This document shows, one piece after another, positions 9,868 through 62,035 of a stretch of DNA of 64,000 nucleotides. This stretch comes from an uncultured Desulfuromonadaceae bacterium (GTDB taxonomy: Bacteria; SDB-A), in assembly GCA_964397545.1 (NCBI GenBank), contig CAYNIW010000010.1:4687-68686 (forward strand), written 5' to 3'. Position 1 is the first letter of the stretch; every line of letters starts with the position of its first letter. The translations under genes were made by a program, and so were the position numbers. The notes beneath the pieces were generated by a model. The model saw only the letters and a program-made list of their open reading frames with translations. It was not told where the DNA came from and ran no database searches.

Positions 9868-11198
9868 GCGGTCAATTTAGAGACAATGACAAAATTTTTG
9901 TCTCCGGATATATAATATGGAGAGTGATAAAGTATCATGTCGTCTATTGTGAAATTGATTTTCAGATCCTCGAGAATTGTTATTTCCCCTCCGAGCTCGA
10001 AAGACAGATCACTTTCGTATCTAGAACTCTTTTCTTCCGCCTTTCTGACGAGGTAAGAGCCGCTTTCGAAGAGGACATTGGATCTTTCTATTGTCTCAGA
10101 AATCCTTTTTATAGAATAATCTACGGAAGCGTGAGCTGAAAGCCATTTCCAAATGAGGAAATTCGCCGATATGTATATCTGCGGGAACGTGAATTCGTCT
10201 ATCGAAGCCTTGCCGGGCAGAGACCTTCTGATAGTGTCCGACGCGATTCCCGTCCAAACAGTGTCAACGGTAAAATCGTTCATAGTCTTGGAATAGAAAA
10301 AGTTGACCCCTACGCTGAAAGAATTCGGGATCCCCATGTCGTCGAACGCCGCGCCGGCGGTTATGGAATATTTTTTCCTGTCGTTTTCGGGATTGACCGT
10401 CATGCCGAGTTCTCTTGTTGAAAATTCCTCTCTTCCCGCATCATAGTTGAAAGAAAGACTCGGAAAAGTAAAATACCTGTATTGGCTAATCCAATTTTTA
10501 AACTGGAAATTGACATTTGCGTTGTAGTAGGAATTTGTCATTTGGACAAAACTGGTGTCGATCAAAGTGTCTATTATCCGAAAATCGGAGTTCCAGGACA
10601 GGTAGTCAAAACCGGCCGTGAAATAAATCTTTTTATTGTCCAGCCCGGCTATCGTGCCGAACGAATTGGAGTTGGGTTCGGCTTTTATACTGCTTTGGGT
10701 CAGAAAATAATCGTATTCGCTTTCATTTGAACTCGATCCGGCGTGGATATTAATTCCCGCACCTCCTCCGAACATCTTCCGGGATATTATAAAATCGGCA
10801 AGATAAGACGGAGGTTTCATCGAATCGAGCATATAAGGCAGGATATCCGGCGACTGAGACATTCTCGGCCTGAAGTAAGTCGTGTCAAAAGGATATCCCC
10901 CGAGATATTGTTTTCTATTCAATGCAATTCCCAAGTAATTATCGGCGAGGCGGTAATGAAAAAAACCCCATCTGTCGGTTCCGGGGAATCTCTCTCCGAA
11001 ATCCATACCTATAGCGTTTTTTTCGATAGCGACATGATAAGTATAGAGATAACCGGGATTATACCAAGCCGTTGTTATCTCGCATCCCTCTACACCCGAA
11101 AAACAGCCGAGACCGGGAATGCAGACACCGGCGGAAAGGTATGCGGGCAAGAGGATCAAAAAAACCGTTCCGACGAGCATAGGAAAGCCAACTCTCAT
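9852..11198 (-). CDS. Outer-membrane beta-barrel protein, FadL/PorV-like
   Basis: It has a signal peptide, an N-terminal AWYNPGYL motif (cf. FadL NPAGL), alternating beta-strand composition, and a C-terminal ...LTAWYQF. Confidence 0.5.
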   Translation of the reverse strand: MRVGFPMLVGTVFLILLPAYLSAGVCIPGLGCFSGVEGCEITTAWYNPGYLYTYHVAIEKNAIGMDFGERFPGTDRWGFFHYRLADNYLGIALNRKQYLGGYPFDTTYFRPRMSQSPDILPYMLDSMKPPSYLADFIISRKMFGGGAGINIHAGSSSNESEYDYFLTQSSIKAEPNSNSFGTIAGLDNKKIYFTAGFDYLSWNSDFRIIDTLIDTSFVQMTNSYYNANVNFQFKNWISQYRYFTFPSLSFNYDAGREEFSTRELGMTVNPENDRKKYSITAGAAFDDMGIPNSFSVGVNFFYSKTMNDFTVDTVWTGIASDTIRRSLPGKASIDEFTFPQIYISANFLIWKWLSAHASVDYSIKRISETIERSNVLFESGSYLVRKAEEKSSRYESDLSFELGGEITILEDLKINFTIDDMILYHSPYYISGDKNFVIVSKLTAWYQF

Positions 11199-11286: not shown

Positions 11287-13248
11287 ATGCAAGATTATTT
11301 CGACCGTGAAAAAAACGTAGAGAAGACTAAAAATCTCGTCGGCTTTGTCTCTTTTCAAGAGGCATCCGGAGATCTATATTCTTCTCTCGGTTTCAAATGC
11401 GGGCTCGAAGTTCACCAACAGCTTTTGACGGCTAAAAAGCTTTTCTGCCGCTGTCCTGCCGGGTTGTATTTTCAACCCAATGATTTTGATGCGGAAGTTA
11501 TCAGGCATATGCGGCCTACTCTGAGTGAGCTCGGAGAGTATGACGGAACCGCTCTTATGGAATTCAAGACAAAAAAAAGGATAATATACAGGATAAGGAA
11601 AGAGACCACATGCACATACGAGATAGACGACACTCCTCCTTTCAAGGTCAATCTTGAAGCCCTCGACATAGCGACTGAGATAGCTTGTCTCCTCAAGACA
11701 AACATCGTCGGCGAACTTCACATAACGAGAAAACAGTATCTCGACGGGAGCATACCGACAGGTTTTCAGAGGACAGCTATAGTCGGCATAGAGGGCAGTA
11801 TCCCGCTCAAAAACAAAGAAGTGAGAATAATCCAGCTCAGTCTTGAAGAGGACTCCTGCAGAGAGGTTTCTGATTTCAGGCACGACAGAGTTTTCACCAC
11901 CGACAGGCTCGGAATGCCGCTCGTTGAAACCGTCACATATCCTGACCTACTGAATCCTCTCGAAGTCGTCGAAGCCGGACAGTATATCAGATTTCTCACG
12001 AGAAGCACAGGCAGGGTCAGGACAGGCATAGGCGCGACAAGGCAGGATGTCAATGTCAGCATAACCGGCGGAACAAGAGTTGAACTCAAAGGGGTTCCGA
12101 AAATCAGCCTCTTTCCCTGGCTTGTCCACAACGAAGCATTCAGACAAAAAGCTCTTCTCGAGATGAGAAAAATCCTTCTTGAAAAATTCAAAGGAAAAGA
12201 CAACTGGCGCATGATGTCATGCAACTTCGATCCCGAACACCTCAACCTTCACCGTTCTCACACAATAGCCTACGGAAAAGAGCCCATTTCAGCCCGCGCT
12301 GTCCGCCTTCCCGGATTTGAAGGACTGCTTTCTTTTTTCACTTCACCCGGAAAATGTTTTTCAGATGAATTAAGCGACAGGCTTAAAGTCGTTGCAGGGC
12401 TCGAAAAACCCAATATTTTGCATTCGGAAGACGGCGTATTCTGCGAAAACAAAGGGGCTATAACTTTTCTCCAGTCGAAACTCGGCTTTGAAAAAGGCGA
12501 CGCTTTGCTCGTCCTCTGGGGGCCTGAGGAGGACATGGAAACCGCCCTTGAAACCATAAACGAGAGATGCCTCCTTCTTTTCGACGGAATCCCGAACGAG
12601 ACGAGGAAAGGTCTGCCCGACGGAACAACAGTATTTGAAAGAGTCCTTCCGGGACCGGACAGAATGTATCCCGACACTGATTCGGCTCCTATACCAATAG
12701 AAAAGGCTTACGTAGAAAAAATTGAGTCTAATCTGCCGGTATCTGTCAGTGAAAGGTTCTCCCAGCTCGATGACTGGGACGCTCCGCAAGACGTCAGAAC
12801 ATACATACTCAGGAAAAATCTCATGCCCATTCTCCAAGAACTCAGCCTTGCCTACGGTGCGGATCCGAAATTTTTATCATGTCTTTCCGGACATTACATA
12901 AAAAATCTCGAAGGAAAATCCGGCAAAGATTTTCCTTGGGGCAGGCTTTCAGAGATTTTCGGATATATGAAATCAGAATCCGTCAAATTCGAAAAAATCC
13001 ATGATGTCGCCAAAGTCCTGATTGAAAACCCGAATATGGAAATTGACTCGCTTTTCAGCCTCGCAGGATTCGTCAGAAGACAAAGAGATGAAGTATTATC
13101 CATGATACCCGAACTGAGAAAGAATTTTTCGAGAATAAGAAAATCAGAAAAAGAAGACGCCGAAAAAAGATGGCTCATGGGAAAATTAAAAGGCTTCGCT
13201 CTTGGAAACATTCCTCTCAGAGAACTCTACGGGGAGATAATACTTTAA
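11287..13248 (+). CDS. gatE: Glutamyl-tRNA(Gln) amidotransferase subunit E, archaeal type
   Basis: The N-terminus is SLGFKCGLEVHQQLLTAKKLFCRCP (the GatE/GatB cradle). Its 653-aa length matches GatE with a large insertion, not GatB (about 480 aa). It is followed directly by an asparaginase-like GatD. Confidence 0.75.
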   Translation: MQDYFDREKNVEKTKNLVGFVSFQEASGDLYSSLGFKCGLEVHQQLLTAKKLFCRCPAGLYFQPNDFDAEVIRHMRPTLSELGEYDGTALMEFKTKKRIIYRIRKETTCTYEIDDTPPFKVNLEALDIATEIACLLKTNIVGELHITRKQYLDGSIPTGFQRTAIVGIEGSIPLKNKEVRIIQLSLEEDSCREVSDFRHDRVFTTDRLGMPLVETVTYPDLLNPLEVVEAGQYIRFLTRSTGRVRTGIGATRQDVNVSITGGTRVELKGVPKISLFPWLVHNEAFRQKALLEMRKILLEKFKGKDNWRMMSCNFDPEHLNLHRSHTIAYGKEPISARAVRLPGFEGLLSFFTSPGKCFSDELSDRLKVVAGLEKPNILHSEDGVFCENKGAITFLQSKLGFEKGDALLVLWGPEEDMETALETINERCLLLFDGIPNETRKGLPDGTTVFERVLPGPDRMYPDTDSAPIPIEKAYVEKIESNLPVSVSERFSQLDDWDAPQDVRTYILRKNLMPILQELSLAYGADPKFLSCLSGHYIKNLEGKSGKDFPWGRLSEIFGYMKSESVKFEKIHDVAKVLIENPNMEIDSLFSLAGFVRRQRDEVLSMIPELRKNFSRIRKSEKEDAEKRWLMGKLKGFALGNIPLRELYGEIIL

Positions 13249-14627
13249 TGGATATATACAAAGGATACAAGGGACTTTCACTCGAAGTTCTGAAAAAATA
13301 CAACATTCCAGTTTGGACAGATGCTCTCGTTAAAACCGAAAAAGGCGATTTCAGGGGCATCATACTCCCCAGGTCTGTCAACGACGACGACAGACACATA
13401 GTTCTTAAAATACCCAACGGCTACAATATTGGAGTTTCAGCCGATTTAGTAACCTGCATTGAAGACATGGGATACAAGGAAGCGCACTATAAAATACCTG
13501 AAAAAGAATTCCCGTTTTCTCCCGATAAACCCGACATAAAGCTGTTCGGAACAGGCGGGACAATTGCTTCGAGACTCGACTACCGAACAGGGGCGGTAAT
13601 TCCCGCTTTCTCTCCGGGAGAACTTTACGGTGCAGTCCCCGAACTCGCGGATATCTGTAACCTCACGACTGAAAAGCTTTTCGCGGTTTTCAGTGAAAAC
13701 ATGGGTCCTCAGCAGTATAAGACTCTCGCCGTAGCGATAGGAGAGGAAATAAAAAAAGGAACCCAGGGAATAGTAATAGGACACGGGACGGACACAATGC
13801 ATCACACTGCGGCCGCACTCTCTTTCATGGTCCAGAATTCTCCTGTTCCCATCGTCATGGTAGGCTCGCAGAGATCTTCAGACAGACCTTCTTCAGACGC
13901 CGCGTTAAACCTGATACACGCGGTCAAGACGGCCGCAGAATCTGACATAGCCGAAGTCATGGTCTGCATGTTCGGCCCTACTTCGGATAAATTCGGGCTT
14001 CTGCACAGCGGGACGAGAGTTCGAAAAATGCATTCGTCTTACCGTTCGACTTTCCGAACCGTCGGTGACATACCCATAGCGGCCGTTGACAGAGATAAAA
14101 TTACTCCTATACGAAAACTCTACAAAAAAAGAAGGTCCGACAGAAACGTCGGAATCTTCCCGTATTTCGAAGAAAAAGTGGCAATGATATACTATTATCC
14201 CAACATGATGCCCGACATGATAGATTCCCTCGTCGAAAACGGATACAAGGGAATTATAATCATCGGAACGGGGTTAGGGCACGTTAACAAACCGCTTTAT
14301 CCCGCCATAAAAAGAGCCGCAGAAAAAAATGTGGCGATGTTCATGACCGTTCAGACGCTTTGGGGCTACACTCACATGTTTGTTTACGACACGGGAAGAG
14401 ACCTGATGAGCCTCGGAGTGGTCCCCGCAGAGAACATGCTCCCCGAAGTAGCCTACATTAAACTCGGATGGGCTCTCGGCAAGACAGACGACCCCGAAGA
14501 AGTAAAAAAGATAATGCTGACCCCTGTCTGCGACGAAATAACTGAAAGAGAACCCTACAACGGATACCTGATCTTTCAGGGCGGAATACCCGAAGTAGAG
14601 GATTTTCTAAGAAAAATACACAAATAA
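13248..14627 (+). CDS. gatD: Glutamyl-tRNA(Gln) amidotransferase subunit D (L-asparaginase-like)
   Basis: It has the asparaginase catalytic motifs FGTGGTIASRLD and GIVIGHGTDTMHHTAA, plus an N-terminal extra domain typical of GatD. The start at ATG 13248 overlaps the gatE stop (TAATG), which is preferred over the track's upstream start at 13170. Confidence 0.75.
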   Translation: MDIYKGYKGLSLEVLKKYNIPVWTDALVKTEKGDFRGIILPRSVNDDDRHIVLKIPNGYNIGVSADLVTCIEDMGYKEAHYKIPEKEFPFSPDKPDIKLFGTGGTIASRLDYRTGAVIPAFSPGELYGAVPELADICNLTTEKLFAVFSENMGPQQYKTLAVAIGEEIKKGTQGIVIGHGTDTMHHTAAALSFMVQNSPVPIVMVGSQRSSDRPSSDAALNLIHAVKTAAESDIAEVMVCMFGPTSDKFGLLHSGTRVRKMHSSYRSTFRTVGDIPIAAVDRDKITPIRKLYKKRRSDRNVGIFPYFEEKVAMIYYYPNMMPDMIDSLVENGYKGIIIIGTGLGHVNKPLYPAIKRAAEKNVAMFMTVQTLWGYTHMFVYDTGRDLMSLGVVPAENMLPEVAYIKLGWALGKTDDPEEVKKIMLTPVCDEITEREPYNGYLIFQGGIPEVEDFLRKIHK

Positions 14628-23982: not shown

Positions 23983-25386
23983 ATGGAAAAAAAGAGGACA
24001 AAACAGAGCGCTTCCATAGTGAAGATATCCTTCTCCGAGGGCGTGTTCGCCCAGATATTCTCTTCCCTATCCGCTCCCGGCAGTATTTTTATAACAAAGT
24101 TTGCAATATTTCTCGGCGCGGGACCATTCTATTTCGGGCTTCTGACAGCGATAGGACAAATTTCACAGCTCTTTCAGCCTATCGGCTATATTTTGACGAG
24201 AAAACTGACGACGAGAAAGGCTGTCCTCGTAAAAATGCTGTTATTCAGCAGAGCTTCTTGTCTTCTTTTTGCCGTCCTGCCTTTTGTATTCTCCGGCGTT
24301 GAGGCGAGAATAGTTTTCGCCCTCTTGTTTTTCGCCGTCACTGCCGTTCAAGCCGCCGCGGGTAATATATGGATTTCATGGATAGCCGACCTAATACCCG
24401 AGAGAATCAGGGGAAGATTTTTTTCTTACAGAACGCAATTTCTGATGGTTACCGCTCTTTTGACAGGTTTTGTCTTCAGTATTTTTTTCGATATGTTCGA
24501 ATCACAGGATGTTGTTTTCGAATCTTTCAGAAAAAATTTATTTTTTCTCTCTTTCTTCAGAAAAGAAAATCTAACAGCGGCTTTCGCCGTAATATTCTCC
24601 CTTTCCGCTTTTTCGGGTATCGCCAGCGCTATAATATTATCCAAGCAGTTGGAAAAACCGAAAAAACTTTACGGGGAAAAGCTTAAAGAAACCCTCGCCT
24701 CGCCGTTTCGTGATTCTAACTTTATCAAACTCGTCATTTTCGCGACATGGTTCACTCTCGCCATCGGCATCGGGTCGCCTTTCTGGGCGCCTTTCATGAT
24801 CCAGAAACTCAAAATGAATCTTTTTCTCATACAGATATACGGAACCGTCAGTGTTTTAGCTTCGGTTATATCTCTGAGATATTGGGGCCGTTTTATTGAC
24901 AGATTCGGCAACAAAACTACCATGAGGATAACTATTATTTTGGGCGGCATTAATCCTTTTGTCTGGGTTTTTCTCAACCAAAACAATTTCTGGATCGTCT
25001 ATTTCGAAGGAATTACATCCGGCATAATGTGGTCGGCGACGAACGTAATATTCACAAATTTCGTTTTGTCTATATCACCACAGGGCAAAAACCAGATTTA
25101 TTCGGGGATTTTCGGAGCTTTCACAGCCGCGGGAATAGTGGTCAGCGCGCTTCTCTCTGGAATTTTCATGCCACCGGCGATCAAAAACGCTTTTGTTCAA
25201 ATAGAACCTGAGCAGATACTTTTCGCCGCGACAGGTTTTTTGAGGTGGACGGCTGAAATCCCCCTCTCGTGGGTAAAAGAACCCCGCTCTAAACCCCTTG
25301 GTTTCGCTTTGCTGTATATGATGTCTTCTATTAAGATGAAAATAATCAACATGGGTCTTCTTTTGAGGACATTCGCCTCGAGATAA
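23983..25386 (+). CDS. MFS transporter
   Basis: It has twelve predicted TM helices with a two-times-six organisation. Confidence 0.6.
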   Translation: MEKKRTKQSASIVKISFSEGVFAQIFSSLSAPGSIFITKFAIFLGAGPFYFGLLTAIGQISQLFQPIGYILTRKLTTRKAVLVKMLLFSRASCLLFAVLPFVFSGVEARIVFALLFFAVTAVQAAAGNIWISWIADLIPERIRGRFFSYRTQFLMVTALLTGFVFSIFFDMFESQDVVFESFRKNLFFLSFFRKENLTAAFAVIFSLSAFSGIASAIILSKQLEKPKKLYGEKLKETLASPFRDSNFIKLVIFATWFTLAIGIGSPFWAPFMIQKLKMNLFLIQIYGTVSVLASVISLRYWGRFIDRFGNKTTMRITIILGGINPFVWVFLNQNNFWIVYFEGITSGIMWSATNVIFTNFVLSISPQGKNQIYSGIFGAFTAAGIVVSALLSGIFMPPAIKNAFVQIEPEQILFAATGFLRWTAEIPLSWVKEPRSKPLGFALLYMMSSIKMKIINMGLLLRTFASR

Positions 25387-25432
25387 TTTTATACCCCCCC
25401 TTTATGGGTTCGAACCAATTAATATAAAGAAT

Positions 25433-25462
25433 TTGACATAAAATCCTGTCTTTCTGTATTAT
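25433..25462 (+). promoter_or_regulatory. Candidate strong sigma70-type promoter
   Basis: TTGACA, then an 18-nt spacer, then TATTAT. About 20 nt downstream are the RBS AAGGAGG and ATG 25485. Confidence 0.35.
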
Positions 25463-25484
25463 ATAAGGTAAAAAAGGAGGACAA

Positions 25485-26540
25485 ATGATTCGAAAAAGCC
25501 TTTTATGTTTTTTGTTGGCATTTATAACAATACTGCCGCTGTCGGGAGCTATCCGCAAACCTCTTTTAGAAATCCACAGCGGAGCCAATTGAGGGGGCTG
25601 TGCCTCATCTGCAGGTCTGCAGAACACTTTCATAGTTAACAACTAGGACAGCCTTTCCGCCCTGAAATATTACCTGTATTCCACAGAACCTCTTTACAGC
25701 CCGGACGGCTGGGGCAGGTTCCAGTTCTACGGCGGAACAGTCATACCGAGAGCAAACATGGATGGCGGTGCGATGTTCTCGCCTACATCCATTACAGCCT
25801 TAAATTCAGCCTATGTTTCCGCTATGGCGGTTCCATGCCATGTCGAAATCCTTCTTCAGGGGACGGCTGAACCCGACCTGATGTCAGGGACTCTCGGCGT
25901 GACTGTAATTGCAGAGCAGGAGCCGGGAGCGAGTCCATATTACCTTTATGTAGCCGCTTGTTCACACCTCGTCCCTTACGGTTACAGTAATTTTTCTGAA
26001 TTTCACTATCCTCTGAGAAAAATGTATCCCAACTTCAACGGGACGCTCGTCACTTTCTCGGGGGTATATCCGGAAACCCTGGAGTTTAATATTCCTTTCA
26101 CCTTCAGCGCTTCATGGTGGCACCTCGAACCGGACGACATCTATTTTGCCGTATGGCTCCAGACAAACAAAACGGGAGACAAACAGATTCACCAGAGCGA
26201 GAACATCGAGATAACAACATTCAATTCTGTCGAGGAAACGCCTTCTCCCGTCGTCTCTTCGGGGGTTTTCGCCCTTGGAATTCCTTATCCGAATCCGTTC
26301 ACCTCTGTTTCATTCGTTCCGGTTTTCGTTGAAAAACCAGCTGTGATGTCCTTAAAAATCTTCGACCTCACAGGCAGAGCCGTAAGAGAGCTGTCTTTGG
26401 GATCTCTCGTCGAAAACGACCTTGTTTTAGAATGGGACGGCAAAGACGACTCCGGCGCCGAACTCAATGCCGGCATTTACAGGATAGAACTCACAGGCGA
26501 TGGGTTCAAAGACTCCAAAACAGTCATAAAAATAAAATAA
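25485..26540 (+). pseudogene. T9SS C-terminal-domain cargo protein gene interrupted by two in-frame stop codons
   Basis: The signal-peptide ORF MIRKSLLCFLLAFITILPLSGAIRKPLLEIHSGAN ends at TGA 25590-25592. The same frame continues through GGCASSAGLQNTFIVNN, then TAG 25644-25646, then DSLSALKYYLYSTEPLYSPDGWGRFQFYGG... into the track ORF 25758..26540. That ORF has no signal peptide of its own and ends in a Por_Secre_tail-like CTD (LKIFDLTGRAVREL...GIYRIEL...KIK). Confidence 0.45.
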
Positions 26541-26549
26541 GATTCAAAA

Positions 26550-26590
26550 GGGGAGTTGAAAAAACTCCCCACTTTCATAAAAATTTTTCA
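26550..26590 (+). terminator. Intrinsic terminator after the T9SS cargo gene
   Basis: A GGGGAGTT-gaaaaa-AACTCCCC hairpin is followed by a T-rich tract. Confidence 0.45.
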
Positions 26591-26608
26591 AAAAAAACTT
26601 GACATTTT

Positions 26609-26637
26609 TAGATTTTCGTTCAATTATCCTCAGTTAA
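26609..26637 (+). promoter_or_regulatory. Candidate promoter for the ABC exporter operon, with a leader of about 135 nt
   Basis: TTGACA, then 17 nt, then AATTAT. Between this promoter and ATG 26774 lies a structured-looking leader with hairpins. Confidence 0.3.
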
Positions 26638-26773
26638 CTCAATCGGTGAGGTGAAGATGATTTTGACCATAAATACTGCTTTATAGCTTCCAGAGTCGTT
26701 CCCGCTCAGGCGGAGGGCAGTTTCCAACAAAAATAAAAACGATGCGACGCGTTGATGCAGAGGGTTATATATT

Positions 26774-28630
26774 ATGTTCACGAGATTGAGACAGACAAAC
26801 GAAATACTAAAAGGCCACCGCCTAACTTTCGCCTTATCAATATTCTGTATGTCGGCGGCGGCTTTTTTCGGATTTATTTCGCCCCTGATTATAAGATATG
26901 TCATTGACTCTGTAATAGAGGGAAAAGCTCCCGGCTTTCCTTTCAATGTATTTATTTTTTCGAGCCAAAAAGATTCTTTGGGAGAAAGCTTGTTCACAGC
27001 AGGAGCTCTGCTCGTAGGAGTTACTTTTCTGCAGGGCGTCTTCACTCTTCTCAAAGGAGCTCTCTCTTCGAGGTCTTCCGAGGGCGCTACAAGAGATCTC
27101 AGAAACAGGCTCTACAATCACATACAGCACCTGCCTTTTTCCTATCACACTCAAGTCAAAACAGGAGACCTGATTCAGCGGTGCACTTCCGATGTCGAGA
27201 CAATCAGAAGGTTTTTTTCAGTCCAGTTCATCGAGATTGGCAGGGCGATTATCATGCTCTGCCTTGTCATACCGATTATGATAAAACTGAACGCCGCCAT
27301 GACTTTTTACTCGATGTTGATAATACCCTTTATCTTCGCTTTTTCAGTTTTTTTCTTCATCAGGGTTAAAAAGGCGTTTAAGAAATCCGATGAATCCGAG
27401 GGAAGGCTCTCTGCGATGCTTCAGGAAAACCTCACAGGAATTCGTGTCGTCCGGGCGTTCGCGAGGCAGGATTTCGAGATGAAAAAGTTTGACCTGAAAA
27501 ACAAAGATTTCAGGGACTTGACATACAAACTCATTATACTGCTGTCACTTTACTGGTCTTCATCCGACTTTCTCTGCCTGGCTCAGATAGCCCTGATAAC
27601 AGTTATAGGAGTAAAAATGGCACTCGCCGGAAATTTGTCAATAGGAACTCTTGTTGTCTTTCTGTCCTACGAAAACCTTCTCCTCTGGCCTGTCAGGCAA
27701 ATGGGAAGGATTATAACAGACATGGGCAAGACATTCGTTTCGGTGGAGAGGGTCAACGAGATACTCTCGGAGAAAACTGAATACAGGCTTTACGAAAGGG
27801 GCTCGGTTATCCCCGAAAGCCGACTCCTCAAAGGTTTCAACATAAAAGGAAAAATTCAATTCAGGGACGTCTGGTATTTTTTCCCGAATACAACGGAACC
27901 TGCTCTCAAAGGCATAAACCTCACGGTTAGAGAGGGACAGACTGCAGCTCTTATGGGCCCTACTGGCTCGGGAAAAACAGCTTTAGTAAGCGTTCTGCCT
28001 CGACTGAACGAATACTCCAAGGGATCCGTCCTCATAGACGACGTGGAATTGAATACAATAGACCCTCATTTTATAAGAAAAAATATCGGAATAGTGCTTC
28101 AGGAACCTTTTTTGTTTTCAAAGACAATCAAGGAAAACCTGATGATGGGCAAAAAAATCTCTTCAGAAGATGAGATTCAGACCGTATCTGAAATTTCCGC
28201 GGTCCACGACTCGATATTGTCTTTTGAAAAAGGCTACGATACTCTCGTCGGCGAAAAAGGCGTGACACTTTCAGGGGGACAGAAGCAGAGGATTGCGATC
28301 GCCAGAACTCTTCTCAAAGATCCCCCTCTTTTGATTTTCGACGATTCTTTCAGCTCGCTTGATTCAGAAACAGACATCAGGATAAGAAACGCCCTCAGGA
28401 AGAGAGAAGGCAGAAGGACTACGATTTTGATATCTCACAGGATATCCTCCATCTCACACGCTGACGTAATCTTCGTCATGGAGAACGGAGAGATAACCCA
28501 GTCCGGAGACCATGAAAGCCTTATAAGAGAAGAGGGTCTATACAAAAGAATATGGGGAATACAGTCAGAATTCGAAAGAGAAACTGAAGAGGCCGGAATA
28601 GAGGCCGAAAAAGAGGCAATACATGAATGA
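26774..28630 (+). CDS. ABC transporter permease/ATP-binding protein (type I exporter, subunit 1)
   Basis: It has six N-terminal TM helices. The NBD has Walker A GPTGSGKT, the signature LSGGQKQR, and Walker B LLIFDDSFS. Confidence 0.85.
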   Translation: MFTRLRQTNEILKGHRLTFALSIFCMSAAAFFGFISPLIIRYVIDSVIEGKAPGFPFNVFIFSSQKDSLGESLFTAGALLVGVTFLQGVFTLLKGALSSRSSEGATRDLRNRLYNHIQHLPFSYHTQVKTGDLIQRCTSDVETIRRFFSVQFIEIGRAIIMLCLVIPIMIKLNAAMTFYSMLIIPFIFAFSVFFFIRVKKAFKKSDESEGRLSAMLQENLTGIRVVRAFARQDFEMKKFDLKNKDFRDLTYKLIILLSLYWSSSDFLCLAQIALITVIGVKMALAGNLSIGTLVVFLSYENLLLWPVRQMGRIITDMGKTFVSVERVNEILSEKTEYRLYERGSVIPESRLLKGFNIKGKIQFRDVWYFFPNTTEPALKGINLTVREGQTAALMGPTGSGKTALVSVLPRLNEYSKGSVLIDDVELNTIDPHFIRKNIGIVLQEPFLFSKTIKENLMMGKKISSEDEIQTVSEISAVHDSILSFEKGYDTLVGEKGVTLSGGQKQRIAIARTLLKDPPLLIFDDSFSSLDSETDIRIRNALRKREGRRTTILISHRISSISHADVIFVMENGEITQSGDHESLIREEGLYKRIWGIQSEFERETEEAGIEAEKEAIHE

Positions 28631-30431
28631 ACAATATTTCAAGGAAGAAGAGTTCACCAAGACTTTCAGGCCAGATCTTTGGAAAAAGGTTATTAGTTTT
28701 GCCAGGCCTTATACGAAATTCGTCGTTTTTCTCTTCGCGGTCATGATCTCAGTCGCTGTGATAGACGCGATTTTTCCTATTATGACAAAATACGCGATAG
28801 ACAGGCTGATAATTGACAAGAACCCCGCTTTCTTGATGAAGTTTGTCGGAGTATTTGCCCTGCTTATAATCCTCCAGAGCGCAAACGTCTTTTTGCTCAT
28901 AGCTCTCGCCGGAAAAATCGACATGTGGATGTGCTATGACATAAGAAAAGCCGCCTTCGCCAATTTGCAGTCGCTCTCATTTTCGTATTTCGACAAAACT
29001 CCAGTGGGATGGATTATGGCGAGGATGACATCCGACACGGAGAGAATAGCAGACACATTCGCATGGGGTTTCGTCGATCTAATCTGGGGTTTTACAATGA
29101 TGGCCGCCATAAGCGGTATCATGTTCTATCTAAATCCCAAGATCGCGGCGGCTGTCCTAATTACAGTCCCTCTGCTCGTTTTTGTCAGCTTTAAGTTTCA
29201 GAAACTGATCCTAAAAAGCTACAGGATTGTCAGAAAGGTCAATTCCAGGGTTACAGGCTCTTACAACGAAGGAATTATGGGCGCCAAGACGACAAAGACG
29301 CTCGTCAGGGAATCGGAAAACCTGTCCGAATTCAAGCATCTGACCCGAAAGATGTTCAAAGCGTCTTTCACCGCCGCCCTTCAGTCTTCGATCTACCTTC
29401 CGATTGTTCTTCTTCTGTCGAGTGTCGGGACCGCCATAGCTGTTATTTACGGCGGTTTTTCAGTCACCGCAGGTTTAATGACTTTCGGAACAATGGTCGC
29501 TTTTATTTCTTATTCTGTCAGGTTCTTCGAACCGGTTCAGGAACTTGCGAGAATATTCGCTGAATTTCAAAACGCGCAGGCTTCCGCAGAAAGGGTGATG
29601 TCTCTCATAAGTGTGGAACCTGAGATAAAAGACCTGCCTTCCCTGCTGTTATTGAACAGGTCCGGAAAAGTTCAGATTCAAGGAGACATTGAATTCAAAG
29701 ACGTATCCTTCAGATACGGCAACGGCCCATGGATTATTAAAAATTTTGATTTCAAAGTCAGAGAAGGCGAAAGCGTCGCTCTCGTCGGAGAAACTGGATC
29801 CGGCAAGACAACCATTGTCAGTCTGATTTGCAGGTTTTACGAACCTCTTAAAGGAAAAATTCTCATAGACGGCGAAGATTATAAAAATATACCGCTTCAC
29901 ACCCTGCAGTCGGCTGTCGGAATGATGCTTCAGACACCACACCTTTTCAGCGGAACTGTCCTTGAAAACATAAGATACGGAGATCTCGAAGCTACTGAAA
30001 ACGACATAACCGCGGCTGCTGAAAATGTCTATGCGGATAGATTTATAAAAAAACTCGAGAAAGGATACGAAACCGAGGTAGGAGAAGGAGGAGGCTTCCT
30101 GTCGTTAGGCCAGAGACAGCTCATTTCTCTCGCGAGAGCTCTTCTGAGTGATCCAAAAATCCTTATTCTCGACGAAGCGACATCTTCAGTTGACACCGAA
30201 ACTGAAAAACTTATCCAGACGGGAATTAAAAAACTCATGAAAGGCAGGACAAGCATTGTCATAGCTCACAGGCTTTCGACGATTACTTCAGTTGACAGAA
30301 TTGTCTTTTTAGAAGACGGCGCTATAATCGAACAGGGATCGCACAGAAAACTGATGAGAGAAAAAGGAAGATATTTCAAATTGTATAAAAATCAGTTCAT
30401 ACACGAAAAAGAACTCGCATATCTGGGATAA
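28623..30431 (+). CDS. ABC transporter permease/ATP-binding protein (type I exporter, subunit 2; heterodimer partner)
   Basis: It has a TMD plus an NBD with GETGSGKT and LSLGQRQ (a slightly degenerate signature, typical of heterodimeric exporters). It overlaps the upstream gene by 8 nt. Confidence 0.85.
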   Translation: MNEQYFKEEEFTKTFRPDLWKKVISFARPYTKFVVFLFAVMISVAVIDAIFPIMTKYAIDRLIIDKNPAFLMKFVGVFALLIILQSANVFLLIALAGKIDMWMCYDIRKAAFANLQSLSFSYFDKTPVGWIMARMTSDTERIADTFAWGFVDLIWGFTMMAAISGIMFYLNPKIAAAVLITVPLLVFVSFKFQKLILKSYRIVRKVNSRVTGSYNEGIMGAKTTKTLVRESENLSEFKHLTRKMFKASFTAALQSSIYLPIVLLLSSVGTAIAVIYGGFSVTAGLMTFGTMVAFISYSVRFFEPVQELARIFAEFQNAQASAERVMSLISVEPEIKDLPSLLLLNRSGKVQIQGDIEFKDVSFRYGNGPWIIKNFDFKVREGESVALVGETGSGKTTIVSLICRFYEPLKGKILIDGEDYKNIPLHTLQSAVGMMLQTPHLFSGTVLENIRYGDLEATENDITAAAENVYADRFIKKLEKGYETEVGEGGGFLSLGQRQLISLARALLSDPKILILDEATSSVDTETEKLIQTGIKKLMKGRTSIVIAHRLSTITSVDRIVFLEDGAIIEQGSHRKLMREKGRYFKLYKNQFIHEKELAYLG

Positions 30432-36834: not shown

Positions 36835-38799
36835 TCAATTATCAAACAAGAGTATTTTCTCAGTCAAGGGTTTCATCCCGCTAAAAGAGACCGATACAAA
36901 ATAGATTCCGCTCGAAAATCTATCCGTCCTTAGTCTTTCGCTGTGCTGACCCGAAGAAAAAGATTTTTTTTCCTTTTCCAGAACTTTTCTGCCCGCGGCG
37001 TCAAATAAGGTAAATCCGACTTCTTCCGGAAACAAGAGTTGAAAATCGATTTGAATCACGCCGGGGAGACAGGACACAAAAAAAATCTTCGGGGGTTCAG
37101 GATCTTTGAGTTCTTCTGTTCCCGTCCCTTCGATGATTTCGATATCTTCTGTGAACGGCATGCTGTCAGAGTATGAGTAGGCCGTGAAAAAATACCACAT
37201 CCTGAGAAGGTATGAACCGGCACTAAGTCCGGAGGTGTTGAAAAGGCAAAGCTCGCCGTTGACAACCGGATTAGACGCGAACGGAGATACTTCAAAAAAC
37301 TCAAAAGTGTCTGACAGAGGTGCGTATTCGATGCGGTAACCCGCAAAATTGAATGGAGAAAGCGGTGCTCTGACGCAGTAAGCACTGCCGGGTATAGTAA
37401 CAGTATCGTTTGAACAGCACGGGTCCGGAGGATAAAATCCGGCGATCAATACCGCCCCGGAATCTTCCGCAAAAGGAGCAGTTGAATGGACCGTGTTGTA
37501 ACTTACGGCTAACGACCTGTCCTCGGCTATCACCCTGCCGTAAAAGAAATTGGCATTATAAAAAAGGGTTAAGGATTTTCCTTCGAGAAGCGCGTCGGTG
37601 TAGAAACTTGAAAGAGCGCAGATGAGAAAAGAAGAATCCGCGTTTCCTATATGACCCCCGGAACCGTCGCAGATTACGTTGCTCAAAAAGGCGATTGAGC
37701 TGTCTCCTAAGAGAAATTCGCCGAAAATCGAGTTTTTGAGCGTCACGTCGTGCCTCCCCCAGAAATAGAAATTCCAGGACTCAACACTCGTGTTGACAAG
37801 CCTGTAATACCTTCCCGGGAAAGGTGCCGTGAAATCTGCATAATGGGTGTTGTCAACAAAACCGGAAAATGTATCGCTCACCTGTCCTATGAAAAGGGAG
37901 CCTGCCGCCCTGAGATCGACGTCGTAAACAGTAACGTTCGTGCTGTCACATGCCATTGTCGCTAAAAACAGCGCAAATACACTGTCTATCTCCACGGAAT
38001 AATTTATCCCTGAACAGGAAGTATCCGGATACCTGAAATGCTCTATGAACATCGAAGGGGAATGAGGTCCCCTTACGGTTCCAAATGAATTTTTCGGAAA
38101 TCCGAGCCATACGAGGACAGAATCGGAATTTTTTATCCTGAGTTCAGCGGAATCCTCAGTGAACAGTACGAATTCGCCGGCTTTGTCAGAATCCATTATT
38201 TCGATCGAAGATTTGCCGGTCAATGCGAAAGTGATGAATGATTTGTCCATGCGCACAGAGTCGAAAACGGCGGATGAACTGTCAAAAAGGGAAAATCCAA
38301 AAGGTCTTGAATTGGACCTAAGGGTTGAATGTTCTGCCTCAAAAGATGAATTCCCGTATGAATTTACTGAATACTGATACACGTATGATTCGTCGAGAAA
38401 AAAAACGGCATTATCGAGCTTCATCATACCTTCGTCATATAGTGCTATGTCTCCTCTCATTCTGAGCGAACACGAATTGACAGCAAGCAGACCGTTTTGA
38501 AAAATTATTATGTCCTCGTTTATTGAAGTGTCACTCGTTATTACAAGAGTGTCATTGAGATAATAGGTTTCGGGAGCTTTTAAAGAAAACGTTTCTTCAC
38601 TCAATGCGATCTGATCGAAAGTTGATGCATTAAATCCGCTGGGTATCTGTGGTATGCCTATGGATGCCTCGCCGGTATTTATTCCGGCTTTCAGAAATCT
38701 GCATCTGTTCAAAGCCTCTGAAAACAAGTCATGCAGAAAAAATTCGCCCTTGTATCCGGCAGAAAGCAATAGAAATAAAATAATGAATTGCATTTTCAT
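36835..38799 (-). CDS. Large secreted protein with a T9SS C-terminal sorting domain
   Basis: It has the signal peptide MKMQFIILFLLLSAGYKG, a beta-rich body, and a C-terminal roughly 80-aa CTD-like segment (FTLFDAAGRKV...GIYFVSVSF...KILLFDN). Confidence 0.55.
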   Translation of the reverse strand: MKMQFIILFLLLSAGYKGEFFLHDLFSEALNRCRFLKAGINTGEASIGIPQIPSGFNASTFDQIALSEETFSLKAPETYYLNDTLVITSDTSINEDIIIFQNGLLAVNSCSLRMRGDIALYDEGMMKLDNAVFFLDESYVYQYSVNSYGNSSFEAEHSTLRSNSRPFGFSLFDSSSAVFDSVRMDKSFITFALTGKSSIEIMDSDKAGEFVLFTEDSAELRIKNSDSVLVWLGFPKNSFGTVRGPHSPSMFIEHFRYPDTSCSGINYSVEIDSVFALFLATMACDSTNVTVYDVDLRAAGSLFIGQVSDTFSGFVDNTHYADFTAPFPGRYYRLVNTSVESWNFYFWGRHDVTLKNSIFGEFLLGDSSIAFLSNVICDGSGGHIGNADSSFLICALSSFYTDALLEGKSLTLFYNANFFYGRVIAEDRSLAVSYNTVHSTAPFAEDSGAVLIAGFYPPDPCCSNDTVTIPGSAYCVRAPLSPFNFAGYRIEYAPLSDTFEFFEVSPFASNPVVNGELCLFNTSGLSAGSYLLRMWYFFTAYSYSDSMPFTEDIEIIEGTGTEELKDPEPPKIFFVSCLPGVIQIDFQLLFPEEVGFTLFDAAGRKVLEKEKKSFSSGQHSERLRTDRFSSGIYFVSVSFSGMKPLTEKILLFDN

Positions 38800-38804
38800 C
38801 TCCT

Positions 38805-39821
38805 TTATTTCAAGAGTTCATAAAGATAATGATTGTCGAATGACATTGAGTTCACCAAAGGTATTTCGGTCATTTCGGCGCATTCCTCGAGGTGAACAGG
38901 AGAACCGGAAACCACTCCCGAAATTAAATTCGGTTTTAGGCCGTATTCTTTTGTCAAAATTTCAACTCCTCCATGGACTCCCAAGGGATCAAGAGCGCAA
39001 TAAATAAGTCTGTGTATCCTTTCCCTGACGGTTTCATTGCGCAAGAGAATAGAGGTCTCTCTCTGCAATATGCCGTCTGCCGTCTCGACCACCCAGTAAT
39101 TCTCCCTATTGTTGGCGTATTTCAAATCGAAGGAGTTGAAAATTTTCAAAAGCTCTTCTTCGCCGAGCAGATAGGTGGAAGGGTAACCGAGAAAACTGAA
39201 ATCCGCAAATCTCCTGGCTCCGGAATCGTTCATAAGAAGAATATCTTTGAGCCCCGCGGTTCCGGTTATCTTTGAAGCTCTGACGCTTTTTCCGGATTTT
39301 GAAAGAGCCGTGCAGCACGCCGCCGCCGCAGTAGTTTTTCCCGAGTTCATCGAAGATCCGCATACAAGTATCATTTTAGCTCTCGGGTATTTTTTGACGC
39401 TGGATCTGGGGTTTATCAGAGAGAAATCAGCTGTATTTAATGTCTTTCCTGAATTGTCAGAGATATATCCCAGACATTTCACTTCCGTGGGAAAAATCAC
39501 TTTGGAACTCTTTTTTCTCGCGACACCAATAATTCCTGATCTCGACATAACATGCGCCTTTTCAGGCATCGTTAGAGGGACAATCCCTTCGTAGTAATCA
39601 GCCGCGTATCTGTTACCGAAAACACAGACTATCTCCATCCCTTCTCTGAGTCTGTGTATCCTTCCGGATTTGTTTTCTATCTGAGTGTGCTGGCCGATTT
39701 TATCCACAATGCAGTAAACAAGATCTCCTGAGGACGGTTTTTTCAAAGTCCGTGAAACAGATTTGATCATGTTTTTACTCACCGTGTAAGCGGCGCTGGG
39801 TATTAAAATGTTTTTTTCCAT
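38805..39821 (-). CDS. P-loop NTPase-like protein, possibly DUF1611 family
   Basis: It has the Walker A-like motif VCGSSMNSGKTT in the C-terminal half. The roughly 340-aa two-domain layout resembles DUF1611. No firm assignment is possible. Confidence 0.35.
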   Translation of the reverse strand: MEKNILIPSAAYTVSKNMIKSVSRTLKKPSSGDLVYCIVDKIGQHTQIENKSGRIHRLREGMEIVCVFGNRYAADYYEGIVPLTMPEKAHVMSRSGIIGVARKKSSKVIFPTEVKCLGYISDNSGKTLNTADFSLINPRSSVKKYPRAKMILVCGSSMNSGKTTAAAACCTALSKSGKSVRASKITGTAGLKDILLMNDSGARRFADFSFLGYPSTYLLGEEELLKIFNSFDLKYANNRENYWVVETADGILQRETSILLRNETVRERIHRLIYCALDPLGVHGGVEILTKEYGLKPNLISGVVSGSPVHLEECAEMTEIPLVNSMSFDNHYLYELLK

Positions 39822-61858: not shown

Positions 61859-62035
61859 GACATATCATCTCAATTCTCACCCCATATTGTCAAGCTGCCG
61901 CACATATTTTGTGCTTATAATTCTCAGAGAAAAAACCCGGGTAAATATTACATGCGTCTTTATGTGATTTAGAATTTTTAATGTTATAAGGCATAAATAT
62001 TGCATAGAATAAGTTGGTTGAATAAAGGAGGAAAA

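What the first reader, a model, noticed from the sequence alone, without database searches (positions are those of the whole stretch)
25433..26540. T9SS cargo gene split by two in-frame stop codons (TGA and TAG) downstream of a strong promoter and signal-peptide exon
A near-consensus promoter (TTGACA, 18 nt, TATTAT) and an RBS drive the 35-codon ORF MIRKSLLCFLLAFITILPLSGAIRKPLLEIHSGAN, which is a classic Sec signal peptide. That ORF ends at TGA 25590. The same reading frame continues for 16 codons, hits TAG 25644, then continues as protein-like sequence (PDGWGRFQFYGGTV...) into the 260-aa ORF. That ORF ends in a T9SS C-terminal sorting domain but has no signal peptide of its own, although T9SS cargo require Sec export. 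So this is one gene carrying two nonsense codons. It could be a recent pseudogene, a homopolymer- or assembly-independent sequencing error, strain heterogeneity, or (less likely) translational readthrough. A perfect palindrome CTGCAGgtCTGCAG lies just 3' of the TGA.
Basis: seen in the sequence. Interest (0 to 1): 0.55.

Follow-up and report, generated by a model that had tools for sequence, protein, structure and literature searches.

The report
Secreted selenoprotein gene with one nonsense mutation
The two in-frame "stops" differ: the TGA is a conserved selenocysteine codon in the active site of a secreted thioredoxin-like surface protein that every public annotation truncates, while the TAG is a nonsense mutation found only in this strain and probably inactivates the gene.

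Summary
One reading frame runs 25485-26540, interrupted by TGA 25590 and TAG 25644. It sits behind a near-consensus promoter, an RBS and a signal peptide, and ends in a T9SS sorting domain.

The two stops have different explanations.
- **TGA.** It is conserved as TGA in all 8 distinct relatives found (WOR-3-type MAGs and metagenomes, 60-86% aa identity). It aligns with the first Cys of the CxxC motif in Cys-containing homologs, giving U-G-G-C here. A hairpin, UCUGCA-GGUC-UGCAGA at 25608-25623, follows 15 nt later. Its stem is invariant even at synonymous sites, and 12 nt of its apex are identical to the E. coli fdhF SECIS. This fits a selenocysteine codon in an Omp28-related, thioredoxin-fold T9SS cargo. 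The closest solved fold is P. gingivalis HBP35.
- **TAG.** It is Trp (TGG) in 5 relatives, including the closest one, and Gln (CAG) in 2. It is therefore a TGG>TAG change specific to this lineage. It recurs in two independent assemblies, and the rest of the gene shows no decay (dN/dS 0.14). It is most likely a recent loss-of-function allele.

NCBIfam already curates an "Omp28-related selenoprotein" family, but this clade does not match that model. I rate it a new member of a known kind. Sec machinery could not be checked.

The parts
25433..25462 (+). Sigma-70-like promoter: TTGACA (25433-25438), 18-nt spacer, TATTAT (25457-25462)
   Evidence: Consensus scan gives 11 of 12 matches, the best site in 25300-26800. 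Function is inferred.
25475..25480 (+). Ribosome-binding site AGGAGG, 4 nt upstream of the ATG
   Evidence: Read directly from the sequence.
25485..26540 (+). Whole gene of 351 codons plus stop: signal peptide, thioredoxin-like UxxC domain, beta-sandwich and T9SS C-terminal domain. It is interrupted in this strain by TAG at codon 54.
   Evidence: Translation. Homologs are co-linear over the full length. hhalign of the Sec clade against Cys homologs gives probability 100 and E 2.8e-40.
25485..25550 (+). Sec-type signal peptide (MIRKSLLCFLLAFITILPLSGA)
   Evidence: It has a basic N-terminus, a hydrophobic core and a small-x-small end. An equivalent segment is present in all homologs, Sec and Cys forms alike. 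No signal-peptide predictor was available.
25590..25592 (+). TGA, proposed selenocysteine codon and first position of the U-G-G-C redox motif (25590-25601)
   Evidence: It is TGA in all 8 distinct family members. It aligns with the first Cys of CxxC in P0009-P0032. In the AF2 model of Cys homolog P0009 that Cys sits at the N-terminus of helix alpha1 of a thioredoxin fold.
25608..25623 (+). SECIS-like hairpin UCUGCA-[GGUC]-UGCAGA, starting 15 nt after the TGA.
   Evidence: The stem is invariant in 8 sequences; the loop is GGUC, GGAC, AGUU or GGUG with an invariant G at loop position 2. Only 4 of 71 invariant 4/6-fold-degenerate residues keep a single codon, and 2 of those are TCT-GCA, the 5' arm. 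The 12 nt TGCAGGTCTGCA are identical to the apex of the E. coli fdhF SECIS. dG is -7.3 to -11.6 kcal/mol.
25644..25646 (+). TAG, a lineage-specific nonsense codon at codon 54
   Evidence: Homologs have TGG (L009/L017, L006/L016, L010, L011/L014, L020) or CAG (L002, L003). The same TAG is in Logan assemblies L007 and L008. The column is variable (W/Q/R/H/A/E/N) in Cys homologs.
25551..26237 (+). Mature catalytic part: thioredoxin-like domain followed by an Omp28-like beta-sandwich
   Evidence: phmmer of 25647-26237 found 87 relatives. Cys relatives hit Pfam Omp28 and NCBIfam Omp28_seleno weakly. The AF2 model has pLDDT 93.5 and its best solved match is HBP35, PDB 5y1a, E 1.7e-15.
26286..26531 (+). 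T9SS type A C-terminal sorting domain (FlgD-Ig-like)
   Evidence: TIGR04183 scores 29.4 bits against a cutoff of 23; PF13860 scores 35.3 against 27.
26550..26570 (.). GC-rich hairpin GGGGAGTT-N5-AACTCCCC after the stop codon, terminator-like
   Evidence: Terminator scan. It was scored on the minus strand, and the T-run on the plus strand is weak.

Best explanation
Window 25485-26540 is a single gene for an exported, T9SS-sorted, Omp28-related thioredoxin-fold protein.

**How the TGA is read.** The active-site motif is U-x-x-C. TGA 25590 is decoded as selenocysteine, directed by the hairpin at 25608-25623, which acts as the bacterial SECIS element bound by SelB. The step that SelB binds this hairpin is inferred.

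**What the protein does.** The signal peptide takes the protein through the Sec translocon, and the C-terminal domain hands it to the type IX secretion system for display on the cell surface. There the selenol/thiol pair would act as a thiol-disulfide oxidoreductase. This is by analogy with P. gingivalis HBP35, a T9SS cargo with measured thioredoxin activity, and it is inferred.

**What the TAG does.** In this strain a single G>A change turned the Trp codon TGG into TAG at codon 54. Translation should stop 18 codons after the Sec codon, leaving a 53-residue product. The allele is therefore most likely a recent loss-of-function mutation. The downstream 260-aa ORF that annotators call is a gene-calling artefact without a signal peptide or active site.
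For: **TGA as Sec**
- TGA is conserved in all 8 distinct orthologs, although synonymous divergence between subclades is at or near saturation: Nei-Gojobori dS between subclades was above about 2 or not computable.
- It aligns with the first Cys of CxxC in Cys homologs.
- In the high-confidence model of Cys homolog P0009 (pLDDT 93.5), that Cys sits at the N-terminus of helix alpha1 of a beta-alpha-beta-alpha-beta-beta-alpha thioredoxin fold.
- TGA is otherwise the commonest true stop in the window (33 of 54 ORFs), so this is not a genome-wide reassignment.

**SECIS**
- The hairpin is at a fixed distance from TGA in all 8 sequences, with an invariant stem and an invariant loop G.
- Synonymous sites are conserved at the 5' arm: 2 of only 4 invariant codons among 71 eligible columns.
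- The loop-closing position shows G:C to A:U covariation in 2 sequences.
- The apex is identical over 12 nt to the E. coli fdhF SECIS, one codon further from the UGA.

**One gene**
- Window versus L009 shows 5 synonymous and 2 replacement codons between TGA and TAG, and 12 versus 1 between TAG and the first ATG.

**Family and fold**
- hhalign probability 100, E 2.8e-40.
- Cys relatives hit NCBIfam NF045500 'Omp28-related selenoprotein', Pfam Omp28 and thioredoxin.
- Top Foldseek hit is HBP35 5y1a, E 1.7e-15. HBP35 thioredoxin activity and T9SS secretion are reported in PMC2907840 and PMC3120885.

**TAG as a private nonsense mutation**
- Relatives have TGG or CAG.
- The TAG recurs in two independent assemblies.
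- TAG ends 4 other ORFs in the window.
- No other TAG-split gene is present in the window.
Against: - No selA, selB, selD or tRNA-Sec was found in the 64-kb window. The rest of the genome could not be searched, so the Sec-decoding trait of the organism is unproven.
- Rfam has no match for the hairpin.
- The hairpin stem never varies, so apart from one loop-closing pair there is no compensatory covariation. L020 breaks that pair with loop GGUG.
- The hairpin lacks the bulged U of the E. coli element and lies 3 nt further from UGA.
- On the pseudogene part, the window lineage shows no relaxed constraint. It has 11 mostly conservative changes against 20 on the sister branch, and dN/dS is 0.14. 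That fits a very recent mutation, but it also fits a tolerated or read-through stop.
- Read-level polymorphism could not be examined.
- The structural model is of a 40%-identical Cys homolog, not of the window protein.
Confidence: 0.68

Rival explanations
1. The TAG is also decoded, by near-cognate readthrough, a suppressor tRNA or another recoding event. The strain would then still make a full-length selenoprotein with two recoded stops 18 codons apart.
For: - The window branch shows no sign of decay: dN/dS is 0.14, with fewer amino-acid changes than the sister branch.
- The allele is present in the window and in both of the other assemblies examined. The downstream ORF is recorded on 28 contigs, but only those two could be read upstream, so the TAG is confirmed in three sequences.
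- TAG is the rarest stop in the window, 4 of 54.
- The position tolerates many residues in homologs.
Against: - TAG terminates four ordinary ORFs in the window.
- No other gene in the window is split by TAG.
- No relative has TAG at this site.
- No conserved structure specific to the TAG was seen.
- Absence of decay is also what a very recent mutation predicts.
Confidence: 0.09
2. The TAG is not the true or dominant sequence of the population. It would be a consensus or assembly artefact or a minority strain variant, and the real gene has TGG and is intact.
For: - It is a single-base difference from the closest relative (TGG in L009).
- The rest of the gene is perfectly intact.
- No reads could be inspected.
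Against: - The same TAG is present in the window and in two assemblies made from different sequencing runs, ERR4539747 and ERR4519277.
- A G>A substitution outside a homopolymer is not a typical systematic error.
Confidence: 0.1
3. Both stops are inactivating mutations and the whole locus is a decaying pseudogene.
For: There are two in-frame stops within 57 nt, and all databases annotate only the downstream ORF.
Against: - The TGA is conserved in 8 lineages whose synonymous sites are at or near saturation between subclades, with purifying selection on both sides of it.
- It aligns with an active-site Cys.
- A conserved hairpin follows it.
Confidence: 0.02
4. The TGA is read through without selenocysteine, for example by Trp or Cys insertion through near-cognate decoding. 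On this view the hairpin is only a by-product of the conserved peptide S-A-G-L-Q-N.
For: - Sec machinery has not been demonstrated for this organism.
- The stem shows almost no covariation.
- Part of the hairpin conservation could come from amino-acid conservation.
Against: - Codon-level invariance of TCT and GCA goes beyond what the amino acids require: 2 of only 4 invariant codons among 71 columns.
- The apex is identical to a proven SelB-binding element.
- The position is the nucleophilic Cys of a CxxC motif, the classic site of Sec/Cys exchange.
- A related curated family is already named as a selenoprotein (NF045500).
Confidence: 0.06
5. These are two separate genes: a 35-codon leader or small ORF ending at TGA, and an independent downstream protein with its own start.
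For: Gene callers start the downstream gene at ATG 25758 or 25773.
Against: - No in-frame ATG, GTG or TTG exists between the TGA and 25758.
- The intervening 54 codons are conserved as protein.
- Cys homologs are continuous from signal peptide to C-terminal domain.
- The downstream ORF alone would lack a signal peptide and half of the thioredoxin fold.
Confidence: 0.01

Closest known systems
NCBIfam NF045500 'Omp28-related selenoprotein' and the Omp28 superfamily (Pfam PF11551, NCBIfam NF033782)
   Same: Cys homologs of the window protein (P0015, P0027, P0032 and others) hit NF045500 at E 1e-2 to 9e-21, and also hit Pfam Omp28. They are linked to the window clade by hhalign probability 100. 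The architecture is the same: signal peptide, CxxC/UxxC thioredoxin-like domain, beta-sandwich, often a T9SS tail. The curated family name shows that Sec-containing Omp28 relatives are already recognised.
   Different: The window clade gives no hit to NF045500 even at E<=10 and no Pfam Omp28 hit. Every homolog tested is far below the 200-bit cutoff. It is a separate, uncurated branch, and it is annotated as a truncated 255-275 aa protein in all public records.
HBP35 of Porphyromonas gingivalis (PDB 5y1a)
   Same: It is the best solved structural match to the model of the Cys homolog: Foldseek E 1.7e-15, TM 0.54/0.59. It is a T9SS cargo with an N-terminal thioredoxin-like CxxC domain and a C-terminal sorting domain. 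Thioredoxin activity and T9SS-dependent secretion were shown experimentally (PMC2907840, PMC3120885).
   Different: HBP35 uses Cys, not Sec. Sequence identity is about 11%. Hemin binding has not been examined for the window family. HBP35 comes from Bacteroidota, not WOR-3.
E. coli fdhF SECIS element (SelB-binding hairpin)
   Same: The apical stem-loop shares the 12 nt UGCA-GGUC-UGCA. It lies immediately 3' of the UGA inside the coding region, as in all bacterial SECIS elements (established knowledge).
   Different: It lies 3 nt (one codon) further from the UGA. It has no bulged U below the apical stem. The lower part of the structure is not conserved among the orthologs. SelB binding has not been tested.
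Thioredoxin-fold bacterial selenoproteins with a Sec/Cys redox motif (thioredoxin-, DsbA- and Prx-like families described by comparative genomics; own knowledge)
   Same: Sec replaces one Cys of a CxxC motif at the N-terminus of helix alpha1. Cys-containing homologs exist, including an apparent paralog in the same MAG label.
   Different: Here the protein is exported and carries a T9SS sorting domain, so the selenol would work outside the cytoplasm. The library holds no paper linking selenoproteins with Omp28, and the single paper that mentions both selenoprotein and type IX secretion is unrelated.

Membership tests
Bacterial selenoprotein gene (UGA-Sec recoding) | In-frame UGA conserved among orthologs, with coding sequence conserved on both sides | tested here: met
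   TGA is present in all 8 distinct members. Both flanks are under purifying selection.
Bacterial selenoprotein gene (UGA-Sec recoding) | Homologs with Cys aligned to the UGA position | tested here: met
   The first Cys of CxxC in P0009-P0011, P0015, P0016, P0019, P0027-P0029 and P0032 aligns with the UGA.
Bacterial selenoprotein gene (UGA-Sec recoding) | SECIS hairpin shortly 3' of the UGA, with a conserved G in a small apical loop | tested here: met
   The hairpin at 25608-25623 has a loop starting 21 nt after the UGA. Loop position 2 is an invariant G, dG is -7.3 to -11.6 kcal/mol, and synonymous sites are conserved. The apex is identical to fdhF. No Rfam SECIS match.
Bacterial selenoprotein gene (UGA-Sec recoding) | selA, selB, selC (tRNA-Sec) and selD present in the genome | not testable with these tools
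   None was found in the window: ARAGORN and Rfam found no tRNA-Sec, and 20 ORFs scanned with NCBIfam gave no Sel protein.
Bacterial selenoprotein gene (UGA-Sec recoding) | Selenium demonstrated in the protein | not testable with these tools
   This needs 75Se labelling or mass spectrometry.
NCBIfam NF045500 Omp28-related selenoprotein | Score at or above the curated 200-bit cutoff | tested here: not met
   Five Sec-clade proteins, with U written as C, gave no hit at E<=10. Related Cys proteins score 15-75 bits.
Omp28 superfamily (PF11551 / NF033782) | Detectable homology to Omp28-type domains | tested here: inconclusive
   There is no direct Pfam hit for the window protein. There is a transitive link: phmmer from the window reaches P0015 (E 1.6e-11) and P0032, which hit PF11551 (P0032 scores 39.5 bits against a cutoff of 34.9). 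hhalign gives probability 100.
Thioredoxin-fold CxxC oxidoreductase | beta-alpha-beta-alpha-beta-beta-alpha fold with the motif at the N-terminus of helix alpha1, and a conserved (cis-)Pro loop | tested here: met
   In the AF2 model of Cys homolog P0009 (pLDDT 93.5), C34/C37 precede helix 35-54. The Pro of I-P (P88) is invariant in the Sec clade. A profile of Cys homologs hits PDB thioredoxins at E about 1e-3. The window protein itself could not be modelled because the tool refuses stop codons.
T9SS type A cargo | C-terminal sorting domain above the curated cutoff | tested here: met
   TIGR04183 scores 29.4 bits against 23. PF18962 is below cutoff at 17.8 against 27, and PF13860 scores 35.3 against 27.
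T9SS type A cargo | N-terminal Sec signal peptide | tested here: met
   It exists only when the TGA is read through: MIRKSLLCFLLAFITILPLSGA, with equivalents in all homologs. It was judged by eye, without a predictor.
T9SS type A cargo | T9SS machinery (PorK/L/M/N, Sov, PorU/V) in the genome | not tested
   Neighbouring genes with Por_Secre_tail domains in L006 suggest the system is in use in the lineage.
Pyrrolysine (UAG) recoding | UAG conserved among orthologs | tested here: not met
   All relatives have TGG or CAG at this codon. pylTSBCD could not be searched.

The most novel reading that the evidence does not exclude
Both stops are decoded in this strain: UGA as selenocysteine and, 18 codons later, UAG by programmed or tolerated readthrough. 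An apparently dead allele would then still deliver a full-length extracellular selenoenzyme. A weaker variant is that the 53-codon product, after signal-peptide cleavage, is a roughly 31-residue exported U-x-x-C selenopeptide with its own role. Apart from the TAG question, the family would be a T9SS-exported cell-surface selenoprotein clade in WOR-3 that all current annotation misses.
Probability: 0.08. Interest if true: 0.7.

Novelty: new member of a known kind. Interest (0 to 1): 0.38.

Why it matters
**Annotation.** Every public record of this family that I found calls a 255-275 aa ORF, such as MBN2363960.1 'T9SS type A sorting domain-containing protein'. Those ORFs lack the signal peptide and the active site. 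The true product is a roughly 350-aa selenoprotein.

**Biology.** If confirmed, the family places selenocysteine use in WOR-3-type bacteria. It also adds an exported, surface-displayed thioredoxin-fold selenoprotein to the list of bacterial selenoproteins. A second branch of the superfamily (L026) also carries TGA at the same motif position. Together with the curated NF045500 family, this points to repeated Sec/Cys exchange in this superfamily.

**Method.** Of two in-frame stops 54 nt apart, one is programmed and one is a mutation. Only comparison with orthologs separates them.

**This strain.** The result is ordinary: a probably recent loss-of-function allele.

Tried and rejected
- **Rfam.** A permissive search of 25400-25800 gave no SECIS or other meaningful family. 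A whole-window search at gathering threshold found only three tRNAs.
- **Restricted inputs.** I therefore searched with the exact post-TAG segment and modelled a Cys homolog instead.
- **First structure model.** The AF2 run with a 12-sequence alignment was poor (pLDDT 55.6) and was discarded. A 118-sequence alignment gave pLDDT 93.5.
- **Whole-fragment folding.** The MFE of the 61-63 nt after the TGA is not better than shuffles (z -0.6 to -0.8). Only the short apical hairpin is conserved. The lower stems proposed by RNAalifold are not supported.
- **Pattern scans.** Genome and metagenome scans with the TGA-hairpin pattern gave 13 loci, of which only 4 were true family members (L014, L016, L017, L020). 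The rest were chance matches.
- **More selenoprotein genes in the window.** No second copy of the hairpin core and no other TGA-split gene was found.
- **Sec machinery in the window.** None was found among the 20 ORFs scanned.
- **Functional link to neighbours.** The conserved neighbouring ABC exporter pair is generically MsbA-like and not specifically CydDC, so I claim no redox link.
- **Literature.** No paper links Omp28, T9SS or WOR-3 with selenoproteins.
- **Rejected readings.** A leader-peptide reading, a reassigned genetic code (TGA is the commonest true stop) and pyrrolysine (UAG is not conserved).
Full report
**1. Observation**

The frame opening at ATG 25485 encodes MIRKSLLCFLLAFITILPLSGAIRKPLLEIHSGAN. 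It meets TGA at 25590-25592 and continues for 17 codons (GGCASSAGLQNTFIVNN). It meets TAG at 25644-25646 and then stays open to TAA 26538-26540. The other two forward frames are full of stops.

The promoter TTGACA-18-TATTAT at 25433-25462 matches 11 of 12 consensus positions. AGGAGG lies 4 nt before the ATG. The C-terminus passes the NCBIfam T9SS type A sorting-domain cutoff (29.4 against 23 bits) and Pfam FlgD_ig. The palindrome CTGCAGgtCTGCAG is at 25609-25622.

**2. Homologs are all annotated as truncated**

A search with the conceptual protein returned only seven clusters (60-100% identity). All are 255-275 aa and cover only the C-terminal 73-78% of the query. I fetched their contigs and translated upstream. 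Every one has the same layout: signal peptide, '…EI[HFY]SGAx', an in-frame stop, 'xxCA[ST]SA[GS]LQN…', and then the called ORF.

The stop is TGA in every case. Pattern scans of GTDB species genomes and JGI metagenomes added one more distinct member (L020) and gave organism labels:
- two 'candidate division WOR-3' MAGs;
- 'Desulfuromonas sp. SDB' (LKUE01);
- one 'Desulfuromonadaceae' bin.

From memory, the SDB MAG is the namesake of the GTDB WOR-3 class SDB-A; I did not verify this. Synteny (GT2, lipid-A acyltransferase-like, MFS, this gene, two ABC exporters) is shared by the window and several homolog loci.

**3. The TGA is a selenocysteine codon, not a mutation**

- *Conservation.* TGA is kept in 8 distinct sequences. 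Synonymous sites between subclades are at or near saturation (dS above about 2 or not computable), while dN/dS is 0.06-0.23 across computable pairs.
- *The region is coding.* Window versus L009 shows 5 synonymous-only and 2 replacement codons between TGA and TAG, and 12 versus 1 between TAG and the first ATG.
- *Cys homologs.* An exhaustive phmmer search with the exact post-TAG segment found 87 relatives. The full-length ones have a signal peptide followed by CxxC (CINC, CGPC, CSFC, CGYC, CSYC, CPPC, CGSC). The TGA aligns with the first Cys, giving U-G-G-C here. Profile-profile comparison of the Sec clade with these Cys proteins gives probability 100 and E 2.8e-40.
- *Genetic code.* TGA is the commonest genuine stop in the window (33 of 54 ORFs; TAA 17, TAG 4). 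The code is therefore standard and the recoding is local.

**4. The palindrome is a SECIS-like hairpin**

UCUGCA-[GGUC]-UGCAGA (25608-25623) starts 15 nt after the TGA in all eight sequences. The stem never changes. The loop is GGUC, GGAC, AGUU or GGUG, with an invariant G at its second position. dG is -7.3 to -11.6 kcal/mol.

The stem encodes Ser-Ala…Leu-Gln-Asn, so I tested whether its conservation exceeds what the protein requires. Of 71 columns with an invariant 4- or 6-fold-degenerate residue, only 4 keep a single codon in all seven full-length sequences. Two of those four are the adjacent TCT-GCA codons that form the 5' arm.

The E. coli fdhF gene, fetched from MG1655, contains the identical 12-mer TGCAGGTCTGCA as the apex of its SECIS, one codon closer to its TGA.

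Caveats:
- There is almost no compensatory covariation.
- The hairpin has no bulged U.
- Rfam gives no hit.
- The longer fragment does not fold better than shuffles.

**5. What the protein is**

The window protein has no Pfam or NCBIfam hit for its N-terminal 250 residues. Its Cys relatives hit NCBIfam NF045500 'Omp28-related selenoprotein' (15-75 bits against a cutoff of 200), NF033782/PF11551 Omp28, and thioredoxin weakly. Their profile finds PDB thioredoxins, the DUF1223 protein 2axo and HBP35.

An AlphaFold2 model of the closest Cys homolog (P0009, 40% identity), built with a 118-sequence alignment, has pLDDT 93.5. It shows:
- beta1 (25-30), CxxC (34-37), alpha1 (35-54), beta2, alpha2, beta3, beta4, alpha3, which is a thioredoxin fold with the motif at the helix N-terminus;
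- a beta-sandwich (118-238);
- the sorting domain (256-344).

Foldseek's best solved match is P. gingivalis HBP35 (5y1a, E 1.7e-15). HBP35 is a T9SS cargo with demonstrated thioredoxin activity (PMC2907840, PMC3120885).

The inferred mechanism is Sec-translocon export, T9SS surface display, and a selenol/thiol redox centre in which Sec takes the position of the nucleophilic first Cys. The catalytic role is inferred.

**6. The TAG is private to this lineage**

At codon 54 the closest relative (L009/L017, 86% aa identity over the N-terminal 251 residues) and four others have TGG. L002 and L003 have CAG. Cys homologs have R, H, A, E or N there, so the position is variable.

The window's TAG is therefore a single G>A change. 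It is also present in two Logan assemblies from different runs (L007 from ERR4539747, L008 from ERR4519277), which makes random error unlikely.

By parsimony with five outgroups, the window branch has 11 amino-acid changes, all conservative apart from the W-to-stop change itself, against 20 on the L009 branch. Pairwise dN/dS is 0.14. There is no decay, so the mutation is recent or the stop is tolerated.

TAG terminates four other ORFs in the window, and no other gene is split by TAG. I therefore favour a recent loss-of-function allele. I give about 0.1 each to readthrough and to a consensus or heterogeneity artefact. The called 260-aa ORF would lack both signal peptide and active site.

**7. 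What could not be tested**

Sec machinery is the main gap. The window has no tRNA-Sec, and 20 of its larger ORFs show no SelA, SelB or SelD. The rest of the genome is out of reach, and so are the reads.

**8. Comparison with what is known, and novelty**

Thioredoxin-fold UxxC/CxxU selenoproteins with Cys homologs and a coding-region SECIS are the standard kind of bacterial selenoprotein (own knowledge). NCBI already curates an 'Omp28-related selenoprotein' family. The window clade fails that model's cutoff outright. I found no paper linking Omp28, T9SS or WOR-3 with selenoproteins.

I rate it a new member of a known kind: a small, uncurated, consistently mis-annotated WOR-3 clade. Interest is modest at 0.38. 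The Sec assignment and the fdhF-identical SECIS apex are neat, and the result matters for annotation. The strain-specific TAG is ordinary.

Noticed in passing
window 11287-13248 (+) and 13170-14627 (+): This is an adjacent GatE/GatD pair, the archaeal-type Glu-tRNA(Gln) amidotransferase, on what looks like a bacterial WOR-3 contig. GatE scores 389 bits on TIGR00134 (cutoff 319.55). GatD scores 499 bits on NF003217 (cutoff 310). From memory, GatDE is regarded as archaeal.
   Followed up: partly
L026 1423-1425 (JGI Ga0172362_10000021; called gene P0202 at 1501-2325): A different, Fermentibacteria-like branch of the same superfamily also has an in-frame TGA at the first Cys of the motif ('RFTNSG*SGCYSSEP'). 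It follows a signal peptide, and the gene is again annotated as truncated. No window-type hairpin follows it. P0201 and P0203 have the same truncated length and may be further cases.
   Followed up: partly
P0009 (Cys paralog) and L016 (Sec form), both labelled 'Desulfuromonas sp. SDB' (LKUE01): The same MAG label carries both a Cys version (CINC, 345 aa, 40% identical) and the Sec version of the protein. The Desulfuromonas and Desulfuromonadaceae labels sit oddly with T9SS cargo and WOR-3 relatives, and they may be taxonomic misnomers.
   Followed up: no
window 26599-26627 (+): A second near-consensus sigma-70-like promoter (TTGACA, 17 nt, AATTAT; 10 of 12) lies ahead of the conserved pair of MsbA-like ABC exporter genes (26774-30431). 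The pair shows no specific CydDC signature.
   Followed up: partly
window, 54 ORFs of 120 aa or more: Stop-codon usage is strongly skewed: TGA 33, TAA 17, TAG 4, at 44% G+C.
   Followed up: no
window 7433-11198 (-), 36835-39821 (-), 46560-48494 (-), 49576-51354 (+), 62000-63940 (+): Several large ORFs (338-654 aa) have no NCBIfam match: seven at E<=1e-5 and one (49576-51354) screened only at E<=1e-20.
   Followed up: no
window 25578-25583 (CAGCGG, within codons His-Ser-Gly just 5' of the TGA): The Ser codon AGC four codons before the TGA is one of only four invariant codons among 71 eligible columns. CAGCGG is invariant in all sequences. It may be a further RNA-level constraint around the recoding site. 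RNAalifold pairs it with the TGY region, but support is weak.
   Followed up: partly
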